From: Alphaproteobacteria bacterium
GTDB lineage: Bacteria > Pseudomonadota > Alphaproteobacteria > RF32 > CAG-239
Direction of reading: 5' to 3'
Length of the DNA stretch: 41,164 nucleotides
NCBI GenBank assembly: GCA_017543835.1
Contig: JAFYFJ010000065.1
Coordinates: forward strand, 1 to 41,164
Position 1 is the first letter of the stretch. Each line of letters opens with the position of its first letter. Position numbers and translations under genes: made by a program. Positions 3,242 through 27,900 of this stretch are shown here, one piece after another. The notes under the pieces were generated by a model. That model made no database searches and had not been told where the DNA came from. It saw only the letters and a program-made list of their open reading frames with translations.

Positions 3242-3829
3242 TTAATCGTCTTTCTTTTCTTCATCGGTTGCCGGTTTCGGTTGAGCCGAAAACGGACGAA
3301 TACCCGCTCTGCCCGAAAGATGCGGCTTACGCATTTCCGGCTTATCTTGTTGCGGCATTTGCATATCTTTTAAATGCTTTTTATGTTTCTTAAAATGTTT
3401 CGGCGCGTGCATAGCGTCAAAAACATCGGCGCGACCGTCGGCGGCATTGATAATGATGACCGTGCCGGCACCGTCCGAGAACATCGGCATAGCGCCATAA
3501 TGTTTCGGCGCTTTCATCATTGTTTGATGCGGCGCTTTGCTCGGGCAACGACCGCAACAGCCGTGCAGCAATTCGTTAAAGCCCATACCGGCCAAGAAGA
3601 CGATGAGCAATGCAATCAACTTGCCGCCGCAACGTTTGCCGCAACGGCATCCGCAACCGCAGTTGCAACCGCCGTTTTCGCCGCAATGGCATCCGCAACC
3701 GCAGTTGCAACCGCCGTTTTCGCCGCAATGGCACTCTTTGCCTTCATTACAGCCGCAAGTGCATTCCGGCCCGCAATTACATTTCTTTTCCGGTGCGGTT
3801 TCCGGTGTTTTTTTATCTTTTGAAGCCAT
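3242..3829 (-). CDS. Membrane protein with N-terminal metallothionein-like Cys-rich domain
   Basis: 18 Cys in residues 17-67 (CxC/CxCxC), then hydrophobic helix LIALLIVFLAGMGF and a His/Lys-rich tail. RBS AAGGAAAG upstream. Confidence 0.75.
   Translation of the reverse strand: MASKDKKTPETAPEKKCNCGPECTCGCNEGKECHCGENGGCNCGCGCHCGENGGCNCGCGCRCGKRCGGKLIALLIVFLAGMGFNELLHGCCGRCPSKAPHQTMMKAPKHYGAMPMFSDGAGTVIIINAADGRADVFDAMHAPKHFKKHKKHLKDMQMPQQDKPEMRKPHLSGRAGIRPFSAQPKPATDEEKKDD
3638..3733 (-). repeat. 42-bp tandem repeat (2 copies plus partial) encoding CHCGENGGCNCGCG
   Basis: Unit GCCGCAA(C/T)GGCATCCGCAACCGCAGTTGCAACCGCCGTTTTC repeated head-to-tail on the + strand. Confidence 0.9.
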
Positions 3830-5450: not shown

Positions 5451-5873
5451 TTATGCGAATTGTCGGGCAAATTCAAATTTATCAGTGCCGTTAATCAGCT
5501 TAATCTTATCGTTTTGCAAAATCAACGGCAATTCAACCGAAACAAAGGTGCTTCGCTTGTCGGCATTTTCCACAAACGCGGTGACGTTACCCGAGGCCGC
5601 CAAAATAAAGCGGCGCGATGCCGTTGCCCAAATTTGCATAAGTTCGGCCGGCGGATTCTCGTTGCCCGTTTCCAAGCCGAGCGCCATCAGTTTTTTGCCG
5701 CAAACCGTATCATCAAGCGTATAACTTCCGGCGTGTTCGGCAATATATTTTAAGGCCGCACGCTTATTGGCATCGGTCGGTTGATAGCTGATGCTGTAAA
5801 GCACAACGCTGTCGGCGGGGGTCGATACATCTTCGGTGGCGGCGATTTGCCGCGCAAGTTCAAGCTTATTCAT
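5451..5873 (-). CDS. Stand-alone ADP-ribosyl cyclase / CD38-like NAD+ glycohydrolase domain protein
   Basis: Ordered motifs VLYS, YTLDDTVCG, WATASRRF..AA, DKRSTFVSVEL match my recall of CD38 LLWS, FTLEDTLLG, WKTVSRRFAEAA, DKNSTFGSVEV. Confidence 0.7.
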   Translation of the reverse strand: MNKLELARQIAATEDVSTPADSVVLYSISYQPTDANKRAALKYIAEHAGSYTLDDTVCGKKLMALGLETGNENPPAELMQIWATASRRFILAASGNVTAFVENADKRSTFVSVELPLILQNDKIKLINGTDKFEFARQFA

Positions 5874-5890
5874 TGATTGTGCTCGATAAA

Positions 5891-6442
5891 TTATGCTTCT
5901 GCCGCTTCGGCGGTTGCTTTGTTGCGACGCGTATACGGACGGCGGCGCGGTTTACTTTCGGTTTCCGCCGCGGATTCTTCCGGTGCTTTTTCCGGCTCGC
6001 TGACTTCCACCACCGTAAAGTTGCGGCGACGGCGCATTTGCGGTTTTTCCGCCGGTGCGGTCGGTGTATTTTCGGTCGGCTCGACAGGTGCGCTCGGTGC
6101 CGGTGCGGCGCTTTCGGTTTCGACCAAACCGTTGTCGGCAACCGGAGCCGATTCGCCGTTTTCGCTCGGTGCATTGTTTGCGCTTTGTTGTTCGCGTGAC
6201 TGATATTTGCGTTCGTTGATTTCGGTCACGATTTTGCGATAGTGTTCGGCATATTGGCGAAACACTTCCATACCGACATAATCGCCGTTGTTTTGTGCCT
6301 CTTTGGCGAGTTCGTTGTAGCGCTTAATCAAATCAAGCGCGGTGCCGCTGCACTTTCCGGCCGGCGATACGCTGTCAAACTTATAATTCAAAGAATACAC
6401 GGCATTACCGCGAAACTTATTGTTATTGTTGATTTTTTTCAT
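5891..6442 (-). CDS. DUF4167 family protein (conserved in Alphaproteobacteria)
   Basis: FDS..P.GK..G.A..L..RY..LA.EAQ..GD.V..E.F.QYAEHY.KI, followed by a low-complexity tail with PRRRP..RR. Confidence 0.85.
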   Translation of the reverse strand: MKKINNNNKFRGNAVYSLNYKFDSVSPAGKCSGTALDLIKRYNELAKEAQNNGDYVGMEVFRQYAEHYRKIVTEINERKYQSREQQSANNAPSENGESAPVADNGLVETESAAPAPSAPVEPTENTPTAPAEKPQMRRRRNFTVVEVSEPEKAPEESAAETESKPRRRPYTRRNKATAEAAEA

Positions 6443-7102: not shown

Positions 7103-7204
7103 TTTATACCTCTTTTTAGCGCTAAATTTCGATACTATTTTTATAAAAACATTTTTTTCAAAATTCAAGCGTATATTTTTTTTGCAAAAATGTGCGAAAA
7201 ACAC

Positions 7205-7233
7205 TTGCATTTGTTAAAAAATAGTGGTAAATT
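7205..7233 (+). promoter_or_regulatory. Putative sigma70 promoter of the hydrolase operon
   Basis: TTGCAT-N17-TAAATT with a TG extension, upstream of the AGAGGAAGG RBS. Confidence 0.5.
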
Positions 7234-7252
7234 TGACAAAAGAGAGGAAGGC

Positions 7253-8575
7253 ATGGATTTCGGGTATAAAACACTTTTGGCTTTGACTTTGGCAACGGCG
7301 GCTTGTTTTAGAGTAAAGGCGCAGAACACGGATTCGGAAAAAAAGCAAAATCTGCAAGAAGTTACGAATACGCGCGATAAGTCGGTGTCTGCCTCAAATG
7401 AAGGAAGCATCTCGTTTTTTGATGCCCGAAAAAATTATGACCCGTCTTCTTCGGCATATCTCGAAACGGAAGATACATCGCATGTGACAAGTGCTTGGGT
7501 GGAACATCCGAGCTTTGAAGAAGAAGTCAAAATGCCGGATATTAAGCCGAAATCGCAGTTAATCGCGCCGAATGTGTTGGCTAAAGATAATGTTACACCG
7601 TGGGAAAATACGCCGGAAGGAATAGAGTTGATGCAAACTTGGATTCGTTTGCAACAAGAAAACGGCAATTATAATGAATTAAAGCCGGAAGATGTGCAAA
7701 ATTTGCAAAAAATCAGCAACACCAGTCATCGATTCTGCGCTTTGGAGGCCGGATTGAAAAATTATGAAATGGACGGCGAAGATATGTTGCGCGCCAACAC
7801 CGACAGCATCGGTGTGGAGTTGGAAAAAGCGGCCGGTAAAGAAGCTACCGGTTCGGGTTCGTTTTGCTATCGGTGGATGAAGCATATTTTGATGGGGCTT
7901 ATTCCGATTGCGTATATGGAAGGTGATTATGCCAGAGAAGCGGCCGAATGGTTGGAAAAATGCCCGAATGTTGTCGGCACGCGCACGACTTTTATACAGA
8001 TGGATAAACTTGTTCCGGGCGCAGTTGCCGTGTTCGGCAAGGGACCGGGTGCTGAGGCCGGGCACATTTTAATCAGCGGCGCGGGTGACCGTAAAATGCT
8101 CAAGGAATATGAAACTGAGTGGGGGCAAAAATATTGGTATAGTCCGGCGCGCGATATTTCGGATAAAATTCGTCCGGCAAATGTGACGGGAAATCGCGGG
8201 AAAAATGGACATTATGCGCCAAAACCGAAAGTATTCTTCACCAAAAATTCGATGGTTTCCGATGTGACGATTTTGAAAGTCGGGTATCAATACACAAGAG
8301 AAAATTCTTCGCAGATGTTTATCAACACGCAGGATGTCTATAATTCGATTTTGAAAATCAACACAAAATCGGCCGAACTTGCGGCAAACAAAATTATAGA
8401 AGCACAAAAAGAAGTGGACGGATTCGTAAAGGCCGAAAACCAGACGGCATACCATAAGTATCCGAGTTTGCGTGCCGAAAAACCGCGTGCATCAAACAGA
8501 AAATTAAGCAAAAGGAAAACTTCAACGCGTCGCACTGCTCACAACAGAAGCAGAGGTCGCGGCGGTTGGGCATAA
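7253..8575 (+). CDS. Exported CHAP/NlpC-P60-like cysteine amidase (putative peptidoglycan hydrolase) with basic C-terminal tail
   Basis: Signal peptide MDFGYKTLLALTLATAACFRVKA|Q; SGSFC205YRWM..IL, PGAVAVF......GH271ILI and ISD fit a papain-fold Cys/His dyad. Confidence 0.6.
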   Translation: MDFGYKTLLALTLATAACFRVKAQNTDSEKKQNLQEVTNTRDKSVSASNEGSISFFDARKNYDPSSSAYLETEDTSHVTSAWVEHPSFEEEVKMPDIKPKSQLIAPNVLAKDNVTPWENTPEGIELMQTWIRLQQENGNYNELKPEDVQNLQKISNTSHRFCALEAGLKNYEMDGEDMLRANTDSIGVELEKAAGKEATGSGSFCYRWMKHILMGLIPIAYMEGDYAREAAEWLEKCPNVVGTRTTFIQMDKLVPGAVAVFGKGPGAEAGHILISGAGDRKMLKEYETEWGQKYWYSPARDISDKIRPANVTGNRGKNGHYAPKPKVFFTKNSMVSDVTILKVGYQYTRENSSQMFINTQDVYNSILKINTKSAELAANKIIEAQKEVDGFVKAENQTAYHKYPSLRAEKPRASNRKLSKRKTSTRRTAHNRSRGRGGWA

Positions 8576-10595: not shown

Positions 10596-11558
10596 TTAAA
10601 CCTGCCGCATTTCTTCCCAATTTTCCGGCTTAATCACCTTGACGTGTTCGCCCCATGTGTAGAGGTGCCAGTCCATCTCGACACGTCCGCCGGCCCGAAA
10701 CTTGACGGTCAGCGTGCCGTCGGGATTTTGAATCAATTCCTGCTTGGGATGAAAGATAAAGTTTTTGGCTTCCGTTGCCGCCTCTTTATCAAACAACCAT
10801 TCCACGTCAAACGGTTCTTCGTGCCACGCGCCGAACGATTCTTCGGCATAATCTTTGAGCGAGAAATTATCCGTATTGAAAGTTTCCGGCAAAATTTCGA
10901 CCGACTGAATGCCTGTAATCGAGAAATTACGCGGCTTTCCGCCGTCATAACCGTCGCTGTGCTTGGCAATCAGATAATGATTACGCTGGCCGTAAAGCAA
11001 ACCATACGGCACAAGTGTATAAGTCGAAGTTTTGCCGTTTTTCTTGGTATAAACCATTTTAATTTGATGGCAGCTCAAAATCGCGTGACGAATGTTGCGA
11101 ATAATATCCGCATCCACACTGATACGCGGCCCCGGACGGCAAATCACGCCCTCGGACAGCATCATTTCTTCGGCATCGACTTCAATCCGATTTTTTTGTT
11201 CCGGCTTGATTAAATTGCGCAATTTCAGTTCGACTTTGCCCAAAACTTCGGCCTTTTCTTTGATTCCGTTTTGCTTTAATAAATCAATTGCGGTTTTGAA
11301 TACGGCCAATTCTTCCGGCGCAAAAGCCAGCAACGAGTTCAGGTTGCGTTGCGGGATTCGCCAACGTTTTGTGCGCTCGCCGGTGTCATATTCCTCCATT
11401 TGCGGAAAATACAGCAGCAACGCGTCACGCATACGCTCGGCGGTGCGGCGCGACACATTAAACCGCTGACGAATATCATCAAGCGAAACGCCGTCACCGG
11501 CCTCTTGCATCCACAGCGCCAAATCAATCATATCATACACTTTTTCGTAGTTTGCCAT
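10596..11558 (-). CDS. driD: WYL-domain transcriptional regulator, DriD-like (HTH + WYL + WCX)
   Basis: SRRTAERMRDA...FPQME...TKRWRIP, PGPR, P.GLL.G..N.YL, FSL..YAEESFG..H, FRAGG..E..WHL.TWG closely follow my recall of Caulobacter DriD. RBS AAGGAGAG before MANYEK. Confidence 0.8.
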   Translation of the reverse strand: MANYEKVYDMIDLALWMQEAGDGVSLDDIRQRFNVSRRTAERMRDALLLYFPQMEEYDTGERTKRWRIPQRNLNSLLAFAPEELAVFKTAIDLLKQNGIKEKAEVLGKVELKLRNLIKPEQKNRIEVDAEEMMLSEGVICRPGPRISVDADIIRNIRHAILSCHQIKMVYTKKNGKTSTYTLVPYGLLYGQRNHYLIAKHSDGYDGGKPRNFSITGIQSVEILPETFNTDNFSLKDYAEESFGAWHEEPFDVEWLFDKEAATEAKNFIFHPKQELIQNPDGTLTVKFRAGGRVEMDWHLYTWGEHVKVIKPENWEEMRQV

Positions 11559-11609
11559 CGATTCTCTCCTTTGGAACGAGCTTACATCAATAATTATCAA
11601 ATTGCAAAT

Positions 11610-13664
11610 CTAAATAAAGCCGATAGGGCGGCTGACCGGCAATTTGTTTTGCTGTTCCTGCTCGAGCATCTTGATAAGTTCGGCCTTATTTTCGAGGCAG
11701 TCCAAGATTTCCGCCTTGTCGCGCACAACCACGAAATCGCCCGGTGTCAGTTGCGGCAAATGCCGTAAATCCGCATTTTTTATGCTGAAAAAGTGTTCAA
11801 AGCACAAACTGCGTTGTTCATCGGTCAGGTAGTCGTAACGCACCTTGAAGGTAAAGCGACGGAGCGATGCTTTGTCGAGTCGGTCCATCAGGTTGGTGGT
11901 GCAGATAAACGGGTATTTGTGCTGCTCCATTTGCGTCAGCATTTCGTTGACCTGCGTGACTTCCCAGTTGCGAAAAGCGCCGCTGCGTTCTTGCAAAAAG
12001 CTGTCGGCCTCGTCAAAAATCAGCAAGCCCTCGCGTTCTTTGGCCTCGGCAAATGCGGCGGCGATGTTTTCTTCGGTTTCGCCGACATATTTGCTTAATA
12101 AATCGGAGCAACGTTTTTTGATGACCGGCAAATTCAGCTTTTCGGCCAAATATTGCGCATAAGCCGATTTTCCGGTGCCCGAAGCGCCGTATAAACACAT
12201 CGAGAAGTTCATCTTGCTTAAGCCGAAAATGCGCTCGGCGAGTTTGTTCAAATCCACATCGGTATTCAAAAGTTTCGGGTTAAATTCGGTTGTGAGCTCA
12301 ACCTTTTCTTCTTTTACCTTGTAGCCGTTGTTGTAGGCCTGTTGCAACACATCGAGTGTTTGCTCAATATCTTTGATGTTGCCGCCGATGAGGTTGGTTG
12401 AGCGCACCGCCGAAGCAATAAAAGCCGGCGAGAGTGAATATTTTTTTGCAAATTTATTGACGGTTTCGGTATCCGCATCAAAATGGTTGTTGCACAAGTT
12501 TTTGCGCCACATTTGCGCGCGTATCGCCGGTTTTGGCGTTTCAAAATGCAGAGCATAGGTAAAGCGACGCAAATAGGCCTTATCCATATAGCGAATATGG
12601 TTCGAAATCCAAATAATCGGCTGCGGATTATTTTCGAGCAGGCGGTTGACCTGCAATTTTGTGATTTCTTCTTCTTTGCGGTTGCCGTAAAATGAGTGAC
12701 ATGAGCCCAAAACATCTTCCGCTTCGTCCATCATCAGACACACGTTTTTTTGCGCCCGCAAAATAATCTGCGCCCGTTGCAACTGTCTGTAACGCGAGTC
12801 GCCGTAATCGGCAATCATCGCGTTTTCATCTTCGCCTAAGGCATAAAGCTGTGTCGAGAGCGTTGCCGCCAATGTTTTTGCAAATTCGGTTTTGCCGGTC
12901 CCCGGTTCGCCGTAAAGCAAAATGTTGATGCCCTTCATCTTGCGTTTGAGCGCCGCGTCGAGCAACTTTTTGATAACTGCGGCCTGCTCGATATGCTTAA
13001 AATCACTCCAAGCCAGATTCGCGGTCTGCGGGTTGCCGACCAAAAAGACGCGCAACTGTTCGAGACTTTCGAAACGTTGATAATAGTAGTTGCGTGCCAA
13101 GCGCGTCACATCGATGTTGCCGTCGTATTCGCCCTCGATGAAGCCGAGCTGATACAACCGCGAGCCGTGACGACACATATCGTAAATCTTGTTCGGCTTA
13201 ATACCGGTAAAAACGGCACGGTCCAAAGCCGATAAATCGCGAGCGTTTCTGCGGGTAACATTGATGATTCGGCTGAGATATTCATCGCATTTTTCACGTA
13301 TGACGAAGCCGAAAAATTTGCGTTCGTCATTGGTCAGGCCGAACAGTTGTTGCAACAAATTCAGATTATTCTCAAGGCAACTGACGGCAAAATTACCGGT
13401 CATAATCGGATGTTGCTTGAGTTTCAGCGCCGCGCGTTTGATTTTTTGCGCCGCTTTAATCGGGTCGGTAGCGGCGAGTCCCTCGATTTCTTCTTCGGCA
13501 AGCAACCCCTTTTTGACCGCCCAATCTTTAATATCATTGAGGTTTTCCGAAACATAATCGACATTTCGCAACATATTGTAGACGTAGCCGAGATTCTGTT
13601 GTGCCTCAAACTTATCTAAATAAGATACTTTGGTTTTGATTTTCATTTTCAGCGGATTGCGCAT
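11610..13664 (-). CDS. Double-domain AAA+ ATPase
   Basis: Module 1 GEPGTGKT / MMDEAED / YLRRF; module 2 GASGTGKS / IFDEADS / TTN / SLRRF; C-terminal PIGF. RBS AAGGAG. Confidence 0.92.
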   Translation of the reverse strand: MRNPLKMKIKTKVSYLDKFEAQQNLGYVYNMLRNVDYVSENLNDIKDWAVKKGLLAEEEIEGLAATDPIKAAQKIKRAALKLKQHPIMTGNFAVSCLENNLNLLQQLFGLTNDERKFFGFVIREKCDEYLSRIINVTRRNARDLSALDRAVFTGIKPNKIYDMCRHGSRLYQLGFIEGEYDGNIDVTRLARNYYYQRFESLEQLRVFLVGNPQTANLAWSDFKHIEQAAVIKKLLDAALKRKMKGINILLYGEPGTGKTEFAKTLAATLSTQLYALGEDENAMIADYGDSRYRQLQRAQIILRAQKNVCLMMDEAEDVLGSCHSFYGNRKEEEITKLQVNRLLENNPQPIIWISNHIRYMDKAYLRRFTYALHFETPKPAIRAQMWRKNLCNNHFDADTETVNKFAKKYSLSPAFIASAVRSTNLIGGNIKDIEQTLDVLQQAYNNGYKVKEEKVELTTEFNPKLLNTDVDLNKLAERIFGLSKMNFSMCLYGASGTGKSAYAQYLAEKLNLPVIKKRCSDLLSKYVGETEENIAAAFAEAKEREGLLIFDEADSFLQERSGAFRNWEVTQVNEMLTQMEQHKYPFICTTNLMDRLDKASLRRFTFKVRYDYLTDEQRSLCFEHFFSIKNADLRHLPQLTPGDFVVVRDKAEILDCLENKAELIKMLEQEQQNKLPVSRPIGFI

Positions 13665-24920: not shown

Positions 24921-27900
24921 TCAGAAGTGATACTTAAAGTCTAAGTTTGCGTTGGTGTGGGTTGTGCCGTCAATGTAAGAGGCAATTGCACCCATCAGCG
25001 AGAAGTCACTGCCGAAGTTGTAGTCAAAGCCGGCACGAACAACCACACGCTGATTCTTGCGCCGCTCATCGCGGATTTTGAAACTGCCGTTCATGCCCTG
25101 CATTTCAAGCTCGGTCGTGTATGGGTCGGCAAATTCGTGATAAGCCGCAACCCCCGCCCGCATCTGCAACTTGTGATTCGTGCCGAGCGTGATGTTTTTG
25201 TTGGCATAGAGTCCGAGTCCCGCCTCAACCGAATAATTGTTCTGCGACTTGATGCTGAGGGCAAACGGCGCACCATCTTCGTGACCTTTGACGTGGTAGC
25301 CGAGCATATTAAATTCTGCCGCCGGCGATAAACTCCAACCGCCCATATCTATCGGGTAGCGCGTTTCGTTCATCAGGCCCATCATGCGCTTTTCGACCGT
25401 GCCGTCGTAGGTGTGGTTGTAGCCGTTGCGGTCGTATGTGCCGTAAGCGTAACCGAAGCGCGGCGCCGTGATGAACTTAAAGCCGTAGCGGTTGTAGCCG
25501 AACGGAACGGACATTTGGAACGTTTCGTCTTTGCGCGAGTTGTTGTCGTGACGGTCGCGGCTGTTGACATTAGATAATGCCAAACTTAAGCCGACCGATT
25601 TGCGCCCGATACGCGTGTTGTAGAGTGCATAGCGCGCGTTTGAGCCCATACCGCTCTCAAAGTAGAACGGCGCAATACTGCCCGAAGTCGTCAAGTGGGC
25701 GGATTTGTCGTTGAACAGCTTGTCGTTGACATCGGCATTGAGCTCGCGCATCATCGTCATATCTTCAAAATTGAAGCGGTTGAACACATCGTCGGCGGTG
25801 AGGGCGTTAACCGCGGCGTTCAGCGCAACGAGCGAGTCTTTTTCTTTGAGCAGGTTAAAGAGTTCTTCGTTGTTGCCGGCATCGTAATTTTGCTTTAAGA
25901 AGTCTGCCACCGACTGATTTTGCACCACTTCATCAAACGGTTTCATGGTCAAAACGGCATCGGATTCGTTTTGGAGTTCGGCATCAAACAGAGCTGATTG
26001 CGAGAGCAGGTTCAGCCCCGAAACATCGCCGGCATCAATCATATTTTCGACCGTGTAAGTGTCGTCAAAGCCGTCGGTTACGACCTCCGAGCTCATCACC
26101 AAATCACCCGAAAACTCGTTCTCGATTTCAAAATGCGAGGTGTTTGTGGCGATGATGACACCGCCCGTCGACAATGTATCAAGAGAGCGCGACTTCAAGT
26201 TACCGTTTTGGTTAAATGTTGCACCGTTCAGGACAATATAAGGCGAAGCGCCGCAATTTTGCCCGCTACATTCGCCGATACCGGAAATTATAATCGTTCC
26301 CGTATTGGTGACGGCAACTTTAGAACCTTCGGCATAGATACCGTAATTGTTCTCCGAGGCACCGGATATATCAATCGTGCCGGCATTTGTAACCTTGAGG
26401 TTGTCGACATTTTCGGCATAAATTCCGTAAGCTGTATTGCTGCCGGATTTTTCGATTGTAATTGTGCTTCCGCTTGTATTGGTATAAGCGCCTGCCGTAT
26501 CGGCATAGATACCGTATATTGTGCCGGTTGTTTGTCCGTTTATGATTATTGTGCCGTTATTGGAACCGTTTTTGACACCGATGGGATTGTTGCTGTCGGA
26601 GATGGCTATTGTGCCGTAATTGTTACCTTTTTCTACACCGGTGGCCGTATTTGCGGCGCCGAATATTTCTATTGTGCTACCTTTGGCATTGGTGCCGTTT
26701 TTGATACCGACGGATTTTTGACCGCCGGATATGGAAATTCGATTCCTGTTCTCGCCACCATCCATACCGGTTGCCGATGTTGTGATATCTTCCAACGTAA
26801 TTGTGCCGCTATTATTGCTTTCCGAACTGTAAGAACCGGACATTCCGATTGCCGTGGATGCACCGTCTATCGTAATCTTATTTGTATTTATAACGGTAGA
26901 GCCCTCCATACCCGTAACTTTGCCGGTGTTGTTTTGCATCTTAATCGTGCCGCTGTTTTCCGCCGTTCCCTGATATGAATATATGCCGTATATATTACCG
27001 CTTTGATTGTTATTCATTTCTACGGTTCCGATGTTTGCAACGCTTTTATCCGAATATATGCCGTATATACTCTTACTTGAGCCGACATTGTTGTTTCCGT
27101 TTAACGTTACGGTTCCGGCATTAGAGGCATCTTGAGTTCCCAAATTACCGTTAGATACCTTAATTCCCGCTATTTCGCCGTTAGATGCGTTGAGCGTGTT
27201 GTTATTTAAGGTGATGGTTGCACTGGCAGCATTTTGAGCCGTGCCTTGTGCCAAGAACATACCCGTTAAGGTGTTGCCGGAAGTTTTGTTGCTGATTTCT
27301 ATCGAGCCGTTGTTGATTAGCTGACCATCCGGACCATTACTGTTGGCCATGTGCATACCGTATCGATAGTTTGCGCCTACACTATGTGTATCCGTGATAG
27401 TGCCATAATTTTCCAATGTTCCGCTCGTTGCCTGCATACCATAAAAAGAACCGGTTCTATTTCCTGCGTCAATGGTTGTTCCTTGAGGATTGATATTTCT
27501 GTTTGATTCACATCTGCCGCTAACCAGGTCGTAACCGTCTTCGCATTCTTCGCATCCGCCGTAATAAGGTGTATCCGGTGTTCCGATAACAACGCATGTC
27601 GGTGTTGTCGGTGTAGGGGTCAGGCAGTGCATGGCTTCTAATTGCTTTCCTTTTGTTTCGCAATAGCCGGCCGTGTTGGCAACACATTCACCGCTGTCAT
27701 CATTATAGGCCAAATTATTATCCGTGCATTCTGTGCACTTCCATTCTCCGCTTACACAACTTAATGTTTTGCAATAACCCGGTTTGTCCGGCTGCGGGTC
27801 GGTGCACTCTGTCGGGTCGTCAGCTACGCATTTGTCTCCATCAGGATGATATCCTGTTGCGCAGGTTTCGCATTGTTCTCCCTCATAGCCATCTTCACAA

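What the first reader, a model, noticed from the sequence alone, without database searches (positions are those of the whole stretch)
5451..5873. Stand-alone bacterial CD38/ADP-ribosyl cyclase-like enzyme with no secretion domain or obvious immunity gene
Seen: the 140-aa ORF has, in order, VVLY26S, YTLD54DTVCG, W82ATAS86RRF..AA and DKRSTFVSVE114L. Established, from recall: human CD38 has LLW125S, FTLE146DTLLG, W189KTVS193RRFAEAA and DKNSTFGSVE226V, with E226 as the catalytic residue. Bacterial ARC domains are mostly known as C-terminal toxin tips paired with immunity genes. Here it is a minimal cytoplasmic protein without a signal peptide, 17 bp downstream of the conserved DUF4167 gene. It keeps the catalytic Glu but has W125->Y and E146->D changes, at positions that affect the cyclase/hydrolase balance. 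Inference: a housekeeping or signalling NAD+-consuming enzyme (cADPR-like messenger), an anti-phage NADase, or a domesticated toxin.
Basis: partly seen in the sequence, partly recalled or inferred. Interest (0 to 1): 0.8.

Follow-up and report, generated by a model that had tools for sequence, protein, structure and literature searches.

The report
Stand-alone cytoplasmic CD38-like enzyme, lineage core gene
This small gene encodes a minimal bacterial version of the human CD38 NAD-cleaving enzyme that is not a secreted toxin; it is conserved across an entire order of uncultured gut Alphaproteobacteria, and its cellular role is still unknown.

Summary
ORF 5451..5873 (-) encodes 140 aa with every quoted motif, 17 bp downstream of a DUF4167 gene.

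It is a true ADP-ribosyl cyclase (ARC)/CD38-fold protein:
- A 32-sequence family profile hits porcine CD38 (E 8.9e-5), a Pantoea ARC toxin and about 35 other CD38/Aplysia entries.
- The AF2 model (pLDDT 92) matches Tac1 (Z 12.3), Pantoea ARCtox (Z 11.4) and CD38 (Z about 8.9).
- W82, S86 and E114 are invariant.

It does not look like a polymorphic toxin:
- No trafficking domain or Imm74 was found, and no Hcp, PAAR or TPS in the genome.
- The downstream gene varies between relatives.
- It is present in 227 of 282 genomes of its family and 1 of 396 other genomes of its class.
- dN/dS is about 0.14.

The closest known kind is the "Nac" non-toxin ARCs of Colautti et al. 2025. Unlike Nac1, this protein has no signal peptide.

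Y26 and D54 are ordinary for bacterial ARCs. The DUF4167 adjacency is genus-specific synteny. A 5'-nucleotidase-like HAD gene is sometimes adjacent and once fused.

Most likely it is a low-activity nicotinamide-releasing NAD(P)+/NMN glycohydrolase/cyclase. The substrate and role are untested.

The parts
5451..5873 (-). 140-aa stand-alone ARC/CD38-fold protein (catalytic domain only; stop codon included)
   Evidence: ORF. Family profile against PDB. AF2 model pLDDT 92, pTM 0.84. Foldseek and VIA matches to Tac1, Pantoea ARCtox, CD38 and Aplysia cyclase.
5532..5534 (-). Codon of E114, equivalent of the CD38 E226 / Tac1 E573 catalytic glutamate
   Evidence: Invariant in 32 of 32 family members. 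E in 85 of 91 wider relatives. Aligned to the ...SVE motif of CD38 and VELP of 9ro8. The catalytic role in CD38 and Tac1 comes from PMC12356396 section 7.
5616..5630 (-). Codons W82-A-T-A-S86 (W..S motif, equivalents of CD38 W189 and S193)
   Evidence: W82 and S86 are invariant in the family. W in 77 of 91 and S in 73 of 91 wider relatives. Alignment.
5712..5714 (-). Codon of D54, at the position of the second active-site acid (CD38 E146 / Tac1 E516)
   Evidence: At least 90% conserved in the family. The 5bnf alignment places it opposite the TLE.T glutamate. E in 38 and D in 29 of 91 relatives.
5796..5798 (-). Codon of Y26, aromatic at the CD38 W125 position
Evidence: At least 90% conserved in the family. 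Y in 61 and F in 25 of 91 relatives.
5874..5890 (-). 17-bp spacer between the DUF4167 stop and the ARC start; probable co-transcription
   Evidence: Coordinates. No minus-strand terminator-like site lies in the spacer, but the scan as a whole is no better than shuffles. Co-transcription is an inference.
5891..6442 (-). DUF4167 protein (183 aa), the upstream neighbour; a synteny partner within this genus only
   Evidence: Pfam PF13763 E 6.6e-16. Upstream on the same strand in 13 of 13 loci of the genus, 10 immediately adjacent. Never immediately adjacent in 18 loci of other genera.

Best explanation
The ORF encodes a minimal, cytoplasmic, stand-alone member of the ADP-ribosyl cyclase/CD38 superfamily. 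It belongs to the non-toxin ('Nac'-like) kind.

Shown:
- It has the ARC fold and keeps the catalytic Glu (E114), the W82..S86-x-R-F motif, the second acid (D54) and the aromatic Y26.
- It consists of the catalytic domain alone.
- It is a near-core gene, under purifying selection, in one family (which is nearly the whole order) of small-genome uncultured Alphaproteobacteria. It is essentially not found in the rest of the class.

Inferred mechanism: like CD38 and Tac1, it binds a nicotinamide nucleotide in the cleft between its two lobes. E114 stabilises the ribosyl oxocarbenium intermediate as nicotinamide leaves. The intermediate is then captured by water (giving ADP-ribose, or ribose-5-phosphate if the substrate is NMN) or by adenine N1 (giving cADPR).

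Because it lives in the producer's own cytoplasm without an inhibitor gene, I infer one of two things. Either it is a slow or regulated enzyme, or it prefers a minor substrate (NMN or another pyridine nucleotide) over bulk NAD+. The released nicotinamide can re-enter NAD through the genome's nadD-pncA-pncB-nadE cluster. The physiological purpose (pyridine-nucleotide turnover or a cADPR/ADPR-type signal) is not resolved.
For: Homology and fold:
- Family profile against PDB: best hit E 8.9e-5, with about 37 ARC entries.
- VIA Z 12.3 (123 residues, rmsd 3.0) to 9ouf (Tac1), 11.4 to 9ro8 and 8.2-8.9 to CD38/Aplysia entries.
- The listed Foldseek top ranks are all CD38/ARC.
- Wider relatives reach Pfam PF02267 above its cut-off, for example P0200 at 35.6 bits and P0191 at 30.4 bits.
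- W82, S86 and E114 are invariant; Y26, D54 and T109 are at least 90% conserved.

Not a toxin:
- The protein is 140 aa, the catalytic domain only.
- No longer form was found.
- Neighbours have no toxin, immunity or defence families.
- No Hcp or PAAR in the genome.
- The downstream gene differs between close relatives: the SDR gene is downstream in 2 of 12 loci.

Conservation:
- Present in 45 of 49 genomes of the genus, 227 of 282 of the family and 18 of 23 genera.
- Present in 1 of 396 non-family genomes of the class, and there inside a 1499-aa open frame.
- Median pairwise dN/dS is 0.14 over 55 pairs.
- The 13 sequences of the genus form one group with support 88/70.
- In a 92-sequence domain tree the window lies in a 20-leaf group made up of the window, 18 stand-alone proteins and one ankyrin-repeat fusion. 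24 of 25 C-terminal toxin-type domains lie in the other half (FastTree, midpoint root, supports not examined).

Salvage route in the genome: NadD-like, isochorismatase (PncA-like), NAPRTase and NadE lie at C113:3269-6732. No NadA was found.

Precedent: Nac1, a stand-alone ARC without immunity, could be purified from the E. coli cytoplasm and makes cADPR plus ADPR (PMC12356396, section 8). CD38-NMN complexes are among the structural matches (4ogw and 3dzj).
Against: - No activity was measured, so substrate and product are inference.
- Colautti et al. report that even strongly weakened Tac1 variants stay toxic in E. coli (PMC12356396, section 7). A cytoplasmic NADase therefore needs an explanation that I cannot show.
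- The gene is dispensable. In one genus only 24 of 56 genomes carry it, and 5 of 23 genera show none.
- The NMN-recycling idea failed its complementarity test. In that genus CinA/PncC is found in 1 of 32 genomes without the ARC and 3 of 24 with it.
- Inheritance is not purely vertical. The two sequences sampled from that genus fall in different well-supported groups, and another genus has two ARC types and two copies in several genomes.
- The window protein alone is below Pfam's cut-off (14.9 against 25 bits).
That W82, S86 and E114 line one pocket rests on homology to CD38, not on measured distances.
Confidence: 0.55

Rival explanations
1. It is a dedicated second-messenger synthase. It makes cADPR (or a related cyclic/linear ADP-ribose signal) in the cytoplasm, and an unidentified receptor reads that signal.
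For: Nac1 makes cADPR and ADPR in about equal amounts, and its authors propose a signalling role for non-toxin ARCs (PMC12356396, sections 8-9). A conserved single-copy gene under purifying selection fits a regulatory function.
Against: Nac1's cyclase bias was tied to loss of the second acid (Ala). Here that position is an acid (D54), and T109 sits where CD38 has T221; from recall, T221 favours hydrolysis. No conserved partner gene that could be a receptor was seen in 31 loci. The gene is missing from many genomes of the family.
Confidence: 0.15
2. It works on mononucleotides together with a 5'-nucleotidase-like HAD phosphatase. One possibility is an NMN/NR nucleosidase route that degrades pyridine mononucleotides to nicotinamide without touching the NAD+ pool.
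For: A HAD-IA gene whose best NCBIfam match is TIGR01993 pyrimidine 5'-nucleotidase (42.7-109.5 bits, below the 142.9 cut-off) lies next to the ARC gene:
- It is immediately upstream in 6 of 31 family loci (L003, L009, L032, L013, L016, L020).
- It is one gene away in 2 loci (L015, L024).
- It is fused to it in a 369-aa ORF in L018.
The fused form exists as cluster P0271 with 5 member sequences from two sources. G146 has the same 373-aa open frame. NAD-dependent LigA is present and no CinA/PncC was found in the genome. CD38 binds NMN (4ogw and 3dzj).
Against: - The window's own genome lacks the linked HAD orthologue; the best match is 24% identity on C114.
- The fusion is a single small lineage: 1 fused cluster among 27 hits.
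- The fused HAD type is common without the ARC. It is in 29 of 32 ARC-negative and 6 of 24 ARC-positive genomes of that genus.
- HAD adjacency elsewhere may be leftover synteny of a prmC-DUF4167-phosphoesterase-HAD-clpB-ARC region.
- CinA shows no complementary distribution.
Confidence: 0.15
3. It is a toxin after all: an orphan or domesticated polymorphic-toxin cassette, kept in check by an unrecognised immunity protein or delivered by an unrecognised route.
For: Its closest solved structures are the two bacterial ARC toxin domains (Z 12.3 and 11.4). Distant relatives are fused to RHS, PAAR, WXG100-like, DUF6861 and RTX modules. T6SS-type ARC immunity proteins have no recognisable family (PMC12356396, section 8), so an immunity gene could be missed. 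DUF4167, of unknown function, is always upstream in this genus.
Against: - No trafficking domain.
- No Hcp or PAAR in the genome.
- The gene after it is variable.
- DUF4167 is not adjacent outside the genus: within 4 kb in 6 of 18 loci and never immediately adjacent.
- The near-core, syntenic distribution with dN/dS 0.14 is unlike polymorphic toxins.
Confidence: 0.08
4. It is an anti-phage abortive-infection effector that depletes NAD+ on infection.
For: NAD+ depletion is a common defence output (established knowledge). A small constitutively present enzyme could be held inactive until triggered.
Against: No PADLOC match. No sensor or partner gene is conserved next to it. It sits among housekeeping genes (prmC, clpB, apt, DUF4167) rather than in a variable island, and is near-core in the family.
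Confidence: 0.05
5. It removes or remodels NAD caps on RNA rather than acting on free NAD+.
For: From recall, Aplysia ADP-ribosyl cyclase acts on NAD-capped RNA and is used for that purpose in NAD captureSeq. The search listing and abstract of PMC10937652 show that TIR NADases decap NAD-RNA. The upstream DUF4167 protein has an Arg-rich acidic tail.
Against: The DUF4167 linkage is genus-specific.
Confidence: 0.04

Closest known systems
Nac ('nontoxic ADP-ribosyl cyclase') enzymes; founding example Nac1 of Actinophytocola oryzae (Colautti, Kim & Whitney, J Biol Chem 2025, PMC12356396)
   Same: Both are stand-alone bacterial ARC-fold proteins. Neither is encoded with polymorphic-toxin machinery or with an apparent immunity gene, and both keep the catalytic Glu.
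   Different: Nac1 has a Sec signal peptide and is proposed to act outside the cell; this protein has none. Nac1 has Ala at the second-acid position; this protein has Asp (D54). This protein is a near-core gene of a whole bacterial family. I could not compare the sequences directly, because no Nac1 sequence was available through the tools. The paper's supplements were closed, so I cannot tell whether this family is among their unlisted Nac examples.
Tac1 (Streptococcus parasanguinis T7SSb LXG toxin, PDB 9ouf) and Pantoea ananatis PAAR-ARCtox (PDB 9ro8)
   Same: These are the best structural matches (Z 12.3 and 11.4). They have the same compact catalytic domain of about 130-150 residues and the same W..S and V-E-L-P motifs.
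   Different: They are C-terminal tips of secreted toxins paired with immunity proteins (Imm74 or ARCimm). This protein has no N-terminal domain, no immunity candidate and no detected secretion system, and it is conserved across its lineage.
Metazoan CD38 / BST-1 / Aplysia ADP-ribosyl cyclase (Pfam PF02267)
   Same: Same fold and active-site residues: E226, W189, S193 and E146 correspond to E114, W82, S86 and D54. Z is 8.2-8.9 over about 124 residues.
   Different: The metazoan enzymes are about 250-residue disulfide-rich ectoenzymes. This protein is 140 aa and cytoplasmic, with a single conserved Cys (C58) and about 22-25% identity.

Membership tests
ADP-ribosyl cyclase / CD38 superfamily (Pfam PF02267, bacterial minimal ARC domains included) | Significant sequence/profile similarity to family members | tested here: met
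   Family profile against PDB: 5bnf 8.9e-5, 9ro8 2.2e-3, then about 35 CD38/Aplysia entries. Three close homologues carry precomputed PF02267. Wider relatives score above the 25-bit cut-off. The window protein alone scores only 14.9 bits, E 0.017.
ADP-ribosyl cyclase / CD38 superfamily (Pfam PF02267, bacterial minimal ARC domains included) | Two-lobed ARC fold | tested here: met
   AF2 pLDDT 92 and pTM 0.84. Foldseek E 8.4e-6 to 4e-4, with only CD38/ARC entries listed. VIA Z 12.3, 11.4 and 8.9.
ADP-ribosyl cyclase / CD38 superfamily (Pfam PF02267, bacterial minimal ARC domains included) | Catalytic glutamate (CD38 E226) plus the W189/S193 motif | tested here: met
   E114, W82 and S86 are invariant in 32 of 32 and aligned to the CD38 residues.
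ADP-ribosyl cyclase / CD38 superfamily (Pfam PF02267, bacterial minimal ARC domains included) | NAD(P)+ glycohydrolase/cyclase activity | not testable with these tools
   Needs enzymology.
Bacterial ARC polymorphic toxins (Tac1 / ARCtox type) | N-terminal trafficking domain (LXG, PAAR, VgrG, Rhs, CdiA ...) | tested here: not met
   The 140 aa are filled by the catalytic fold. No longer homologue was found (which the tool itself rates as weak evidence). 211 near-length homologues have E<=0.001, and the 120 listed are 136-171 aa.
Bacterial ARC polymorphic toxins (Tac1 / ARCtox type) | Adjacent cognate immunity gene (Imm74 or ARCimm-like) | tested here: not met
   Neighbours are an SDR epimerase and DUF4167, and no Imm family was hit. 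The downstream gene varies among 12 loci of the genus. Imm74 was not found in the genome, but the control genomes were silent, so that part is inconclusive. Unclassified immunity folds cannot be excluded.
Bacterial ARC polymorphic toxins (Tac1 / ARCtox type) | A delivery system in the genome | tested here: not met
   Hcp, PAAR and TPS were not found. The TPS control was silent, the assembly is 89.9% complete, and T7SS was not searched.
Nac (non-toxin stand-alone ARC; PMC12356396) | Tac1 homologue not encoded with toxin-system components and without an apparent immunity gene | tested here: met
Nac (non-toxin stand-alone ARC; PMC12356396) | Non-toxic in the cytoplasm; cADPR as a major product (shown for Nac1 only) | not testable with these tools
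   Needs expression and HPLC-MS. The Nac1 signature (Ala at the second-acid position) is not present here: D54.
Anti-phage defence NADase systems | Match to a known defence-system model, or a defence-island context with a sensor partner | tested here: not met
   No PADLOC hit. The context is housekeeping and no partner is conserved.

The most novel reading that the evidence does not exclude
A whole order of uncultured gut Alphaproteobacteria has domesticated a CD38-type enzyme as a cytoplasmic housekeeping gene. Two forms of this reading remain open. It could be the first bacterial intracellular cADPR/ADPR second-messenger synthase that is a lineage core gene. Or it could be the missing gene for a pyridine-mononucleotide nucleosidase (NMN to nicotinamide plus ribose-5-phosphate), acting with a 5'-nucleotidase-like HAD partner to which it is occasionally fused.
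Probability: 0.2. Interest if true: 0.75.

Novelty: new member of a known kind. Interest (0 to 1): 0.45.

Why it matters
Bacterial CD38-like enzymes were characterised only in 2025, almost all as secreted NAD-depleting toxins. The single studied non-toxin example is a secreted enzyme of unknown role.

This family differs in three ways. It is intracellular, it lacks an inhibitor gene, and it has been kept under purifying selection in about 80% of the genomes of one bacterial order while being essentially not found in the rest of the class. It therefore gives a defined comparative set for asking what a cell gains from a CD38-type enzyme in its own cytoplasm, and how such an enzyme is kept from draining NAD+. 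The set includes natural presence/absence within one genus, paralogues, and a HAD fusion.

If the enzyme makes cADPR, it would put that messenger into ordinary bacterial physiology. If it is an NMN/NR nucleosidase, it would fill a gap in NAD-recycling maps of reduced genomes.

Tried and rejected
- DUF4167 as a dedicated partner or immunity protein: rejected as unsupported. It is upstream in all 13 loci of the genus. In 18 loci from 16 other genera it is within 4 kb in 6 and never immediately adjacent. I did not run complex prediction because I do not claim binding.
- apt and the SDR epimerase as partners: not conserved. apt is in 2 of 12 and SDR in 2 of 12 loci of the genus.
- NMN-deamidase complementarity: CinA is found in 4 of 56 genomes of the patchy genus, 3 with the ARC and 1 without. 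There is no complementarity.
- Isochorismatase (PncA-like) profile in the same genus: 12 of 24 ARC-positive against 3 of 32 ARC-negative genomes. This goes in the expected direction, but the genomes are kin and the strong hits are a different isochorismatase type from the window genome's PncA-like gene. I treat it as a lead only.
- Fused-type HAD profile: 29 of 32 ARC-negative against 6 of 24 ARC-positive genomes. The HAD does not depend on the ARC.
- Fused or longer forms of the window protein: none found.
- The apparent 369-aa HAD-ARC fusion in L032 contains Ns (X in the translation) and was discarded.
- Imm74 in the genome: none found, but the control genomes were silent. The TPS control was also silent.
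- Expression: the look-up of sequencing runs listed no RNA holder, only one run of unknown kind holding 0.30 of the words.
- Promoter/terminator scan: counts were within the shuffles.
- The search for related loci with 10 distant stand-alone relatives failed for lack of a conserved stretch. With 5 sequences it returned 13 loci. By record title, 11 are uncultured Alphaproteobacteria/Rhodospirillaceae genome bins, one is a Lachnospiraceae-labelled bin, and one is a weak Bacteroidia match (E 1e-3). The organisms holding the more distant stand-alone relatives (P0130-P0148) remain unidentified.
- The search of earlier findings was not open.
Full report
**1. Observation**

The ORF listing gives an ATG-started 140-aa ORF at 5451..5873 on the minus strand. 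The upstream ORF, 5891..6442 (-), is a DUF4167 protein (PF13763, E 6.6e-16), and the spacer is 17 bp. The N-terminus has no hydrophobic stretch. This was judged by eye, as no signal-peptide predictor was available.

**2. Is it CD38/ARC-like?**

- The single sequence gives only weak hits, but both point the same way. Pfam PF02267 scores E 0.017 at 14.9 bits, under the 25-bit cut-off. PDB 9ro8, 'ADP-ribosylcyclase toxin', scores E 0.0073.
- The protein has 211 near-length homologues at E<=0.001. The 120 listed are 63-96% identical and 136-171 aa long, and the named ones are hypothetical proteins of uncultured Alphaproteobacteria.
- A profile of 32 of these homologues (A1) hits porcine CD38 (8.9e-5), 9ro8 (2.2e-3), about 30 human CD38 entries (about 0.01) and Aplysia cyclase (0.26-0.6). 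Only 5 of the 42 listed hits are something else.
- The printed alignments put W82, S86 and R-F on CD38's W189, S193 and R-F. They put E114 on E226, and D54 on the TLE.T glutamate of porcine CD38.
- The AF2 model built from A1 has pLDDT 92 and pTM 0.84.
- Foldseek lists only CD38/ARC entries, with E 8.4e-6 to 4e-4.
- VIA-align gives Z 12.3 (123 residues, rmsd 3.0) to 9ouf, the S. parasanguinis enzyme. It gives Z 11.4 to 9ro8, the Pantoea T6SS ARC toxin, and Z 8.2-8.9 to CD38 and Aplysia cyclase.
- An all-against-library HMMER search with A1 finds 614 proteins at E<=0.001. I scanned 93 of the 150 listed against Pfam. Many of them reach PF02267, and some carry RHS, PAAR, WXG100-like, DUF6861, SLH, peptidoglycan-binding, RTX or ankyrin modules.

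Homology to the ARC superfamily is therefore secure. W82, S86 and E114 are invariant in the family, and Y26, D54 and T109 are at least 90% conserved. I could not measure pocket distances, because no model coordinates were available.

**3. The two 'unusual' residues are not unusual**

I aligned 91 wider relatives to the profile. The Y26 column is Y in 61 and F in 25. The D54 column is E in 38 and D in 29. The D-bearing proteins include many whose ARC domain is C-terminal in a 290-480-aa protein, which is the toxin-type architecture. These substitutions therefore do not set this protein apart.

What does mark the stand-alone group is an insertion after the Y-S motif: S-[IV]-S-[YF]-x-P-[TS]-x-x-N-[KR].

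**4. Distribution**

- The window lies in a 1.32-Mb assembly that is 89.9% complete.
- The gene is found in 45 of 49 genomes of the genus and 227 of 282 genomes of the family. It is in 18 of 23 genera, and in 178 of 219 high-quality genomes.
- A draw from the order was all the same family, with 166 of 201 positive.
- In a class-wide draw it is found in 1 of 396 genomes outside the family. There it is a partial match inside a 1499-aa open frame. One other weak match, a 264-aa protein with no Pfam family, was seen earlier.
- One genus is patchy (24 of 56 positive) and five small genera show none.
- Median pairwise dN/dS among 12 orthologues of the genus is 0.14, with dS 0.8-1.5, close to saturation.
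- In an IQ-TREE of 35 sequences from the family, the 13 from the genus form one group with support 88/70.
- In the same tree the two sequences from the patchy genus fall in different well-supported groups.
- One genus has two ARC types, with two copies in several genomes, so there has been some duplication or transfer inside the family.
- In a FastTree of 92 domain sequences, the window sits in a 20-leaf group made up of the window, 18 stand-alone proteins and one ankyrin-repeat fusion. 24 of 25 C-terminal toxin-type domains lie in the other half. This tree was midpoint-rooted and I did not examine supports, so it is descriptive only.

**5. Context**

Within the genus, DUF4167 is upstream on the same strand in 13 of 13 loci, and immediately adjacent in 10. 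The gene downstream varies: the SDR epimerase of the window recurs in 2 of 12 loci, and apt also in 2 of 12.

In 18 loci from 16 other genera, DUF4167 is within 4 kb in 6 and is never the immediate neighbour. The commonest upstream gene there is ClpB, in 12 loci. The recurring order is prmC, DUF4167, a membrane metallophosphoesterase (YaeI/LpxG-like), HAD, ClpB, ARC. The DUF4167 adjacency is therefore best read as leftover synteny after local deletions. It is not good evidence for a functional pair.

No toxin, immunity or defence family was found in the neighbours or in the rest of the window. The genome shows no Hcp, PAAR, TPS or Imm74, although the controls were silent for the last two.

**6. 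A lead: HAD 5'-nucleotidase-like genes**

A 213-236-aa HAD-IA gene, whose best NCBIfam match is TIGR01993 pyrimidine 5'-nucleotidase (below cut-off), lies next to the ARC gene in several genomes:

- It is immediately upstream in 6 of 31 family loci.
- It is one gene away in 2 more.
- A second, more canonical HAD of the same subfamily (109.5 bits) is fused to the ARC in a 369-aa ORF in L018.

The fused protein exists as one cluster (P0271, 5 members) among 27 hits. The other 26 hits are stand-alone HADs.

The link is weak for three reasons. The window's genome lacks the linked HAD. The fused-type HAD is commoner in genomes without the ARC, at 29 of 32 against 6 of 24. The other adjacencies may again be leftover synteny.

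**7. NAD metabolism of the host genome**

- One contig carries NadD-like, isochorismatase (PncA-like), NAPRTase and NadE genes in a row (C113:3269-6732).
- NadA was not found.
- NAD-dependent LigA is present.
- CinA/PncC was not found.

Nicotinamide released by an ARC enzyme therefore has a recycling route. I tested whether the ARC substitutes for PncC in recycling ligase-derived NMN. In the patchy genus, CinA occurs in 3 of 24 carriers and 1 of 32 non-carriers, so there is no complementarity. Isochorismatase-family genes are commoner in carriers, at 12 of 24 against 3 of 32. These genomes are kin, so this is only a lead.

**8. What is known**

I read two 2025 papers.

Colautti, Kim and Whitney (PMC12356396; abstract and sections 7, 8, 9 and 18 read):
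- Tac1 is a T7SS toxin that hydrolyses NAD(P)+ through a cADPR intermediate.
- E573 is essential, and E516 (CD38 E146) promotes hydrolysis of the intermediate.
- Even crippled variants stay toxic in E. coli.
- A set of homologues without toxin context or immunity genes, named Nac, is probably not toxic.
- Nac1 has a signal peptide and Ala at the E516 position, and makes cADPR and ADPR in about equal amounts.

Martinkus et al. [quoted passage not shown]

My searches for ARC together with Alphaproteobacteria terms and for DUF4167 turned up no description of this family.

**9. Verdict**

This is a real, minimal ARC/CD38-fold protein and very probably an active enzyme. By context, distribution and selection it is not a polymorphic toxin or a typical defence gene. 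It fits the recently defined Nac kind, as a cytoplasmic, lineage-core variant.

The most likely chemistry is E114-dependent release of nicotinamide from NAD(P)+ or NMN. The enzyme would be kept harmless by low activity, by regulation or by substrate preference. This step is inferred and not shown.

Three things remain open and need the bench: the substrate, the product (linear or cyclic), and the cellular role.

Noticed in passing
L018:3989-5098 (-), genome G143; also G146:C29:36360-37451: Natural fusion of a pyrimidine-5'-nucleotidase-like HAD domain (TIGR01993, 109.5 bits) with the ARC domain in one 369-373-aa open frame. The same protein exists as cluster P0271 (5 members).
   Followed up: partly
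G000:C113:3269-6732: NadD-like, isochorismatase (PncA-like), NAPRTase and NadE genes lie in a row, a whole Preiss-Handler salvage route in one cluster. NadA and CinA were not found in the 89.9%-complete assembly.
   Followed up: partly
window 24921-32453 (-): A 2510-aa ORF with no Pfam family at E<=1e-5, by far the largest gene of the window.
   Followed up: no
window 3242-3829 (-): A 195-aa ORF with repeated C-x-C-G-x-x-C-x-C-G cysteine motifs followed by a hydrophobic stretch (metallothionein-like, possibly membrane-anchored). No Pfam or NCBIfam match. Homologues are present in L005 and L007.
   Followed up: no
window 7190-8575 (+): A 461-aa ORF with no Pfam or NCBIfam family, divergent from apt. 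It is conserved in relatives, with tblastn hits in L004 and L005.
   Followed up: no
window 10596-13664 (-): A WYL/WCX-domain regulator gene (10596-11600) sits next to a 684-aa double AAA ATPase gene (11610-13664). This could be a regulated stress or defence pair.
   Followed up: no
window 39946-40263 (-): ARAGORN calls a permuted (two-piece, starred) tmRNA with tag peptide ANDNFAPVAVAA.
   Followed up: no
G255:C8:39301-39705 and G255:C26:17822-18226 (L033, L037); several other genomes of genus g44 and g46: Some genomes of the family carry two ARC copies. The second is much more divergent (135 bits against 195 bits to the profile; long branch in the tree).
   Followed up: partly
G675:C10:161511-161672 (L036): This is the only match in 396 other genomes of the class. 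It is a partial ARC-like stretch inside a 1499-aa open frame, which looks like a large toxin-type protein.
   Followed up: no
genus g33 (G129-G184): Gene content splits the genus. Genomes with the ARC tend to have a roughly 100-bit isochorismatase and lack the fused-type HAD; genomes without the ARC show the reverse. This probably reflects two subclades.
   Followed up: partly
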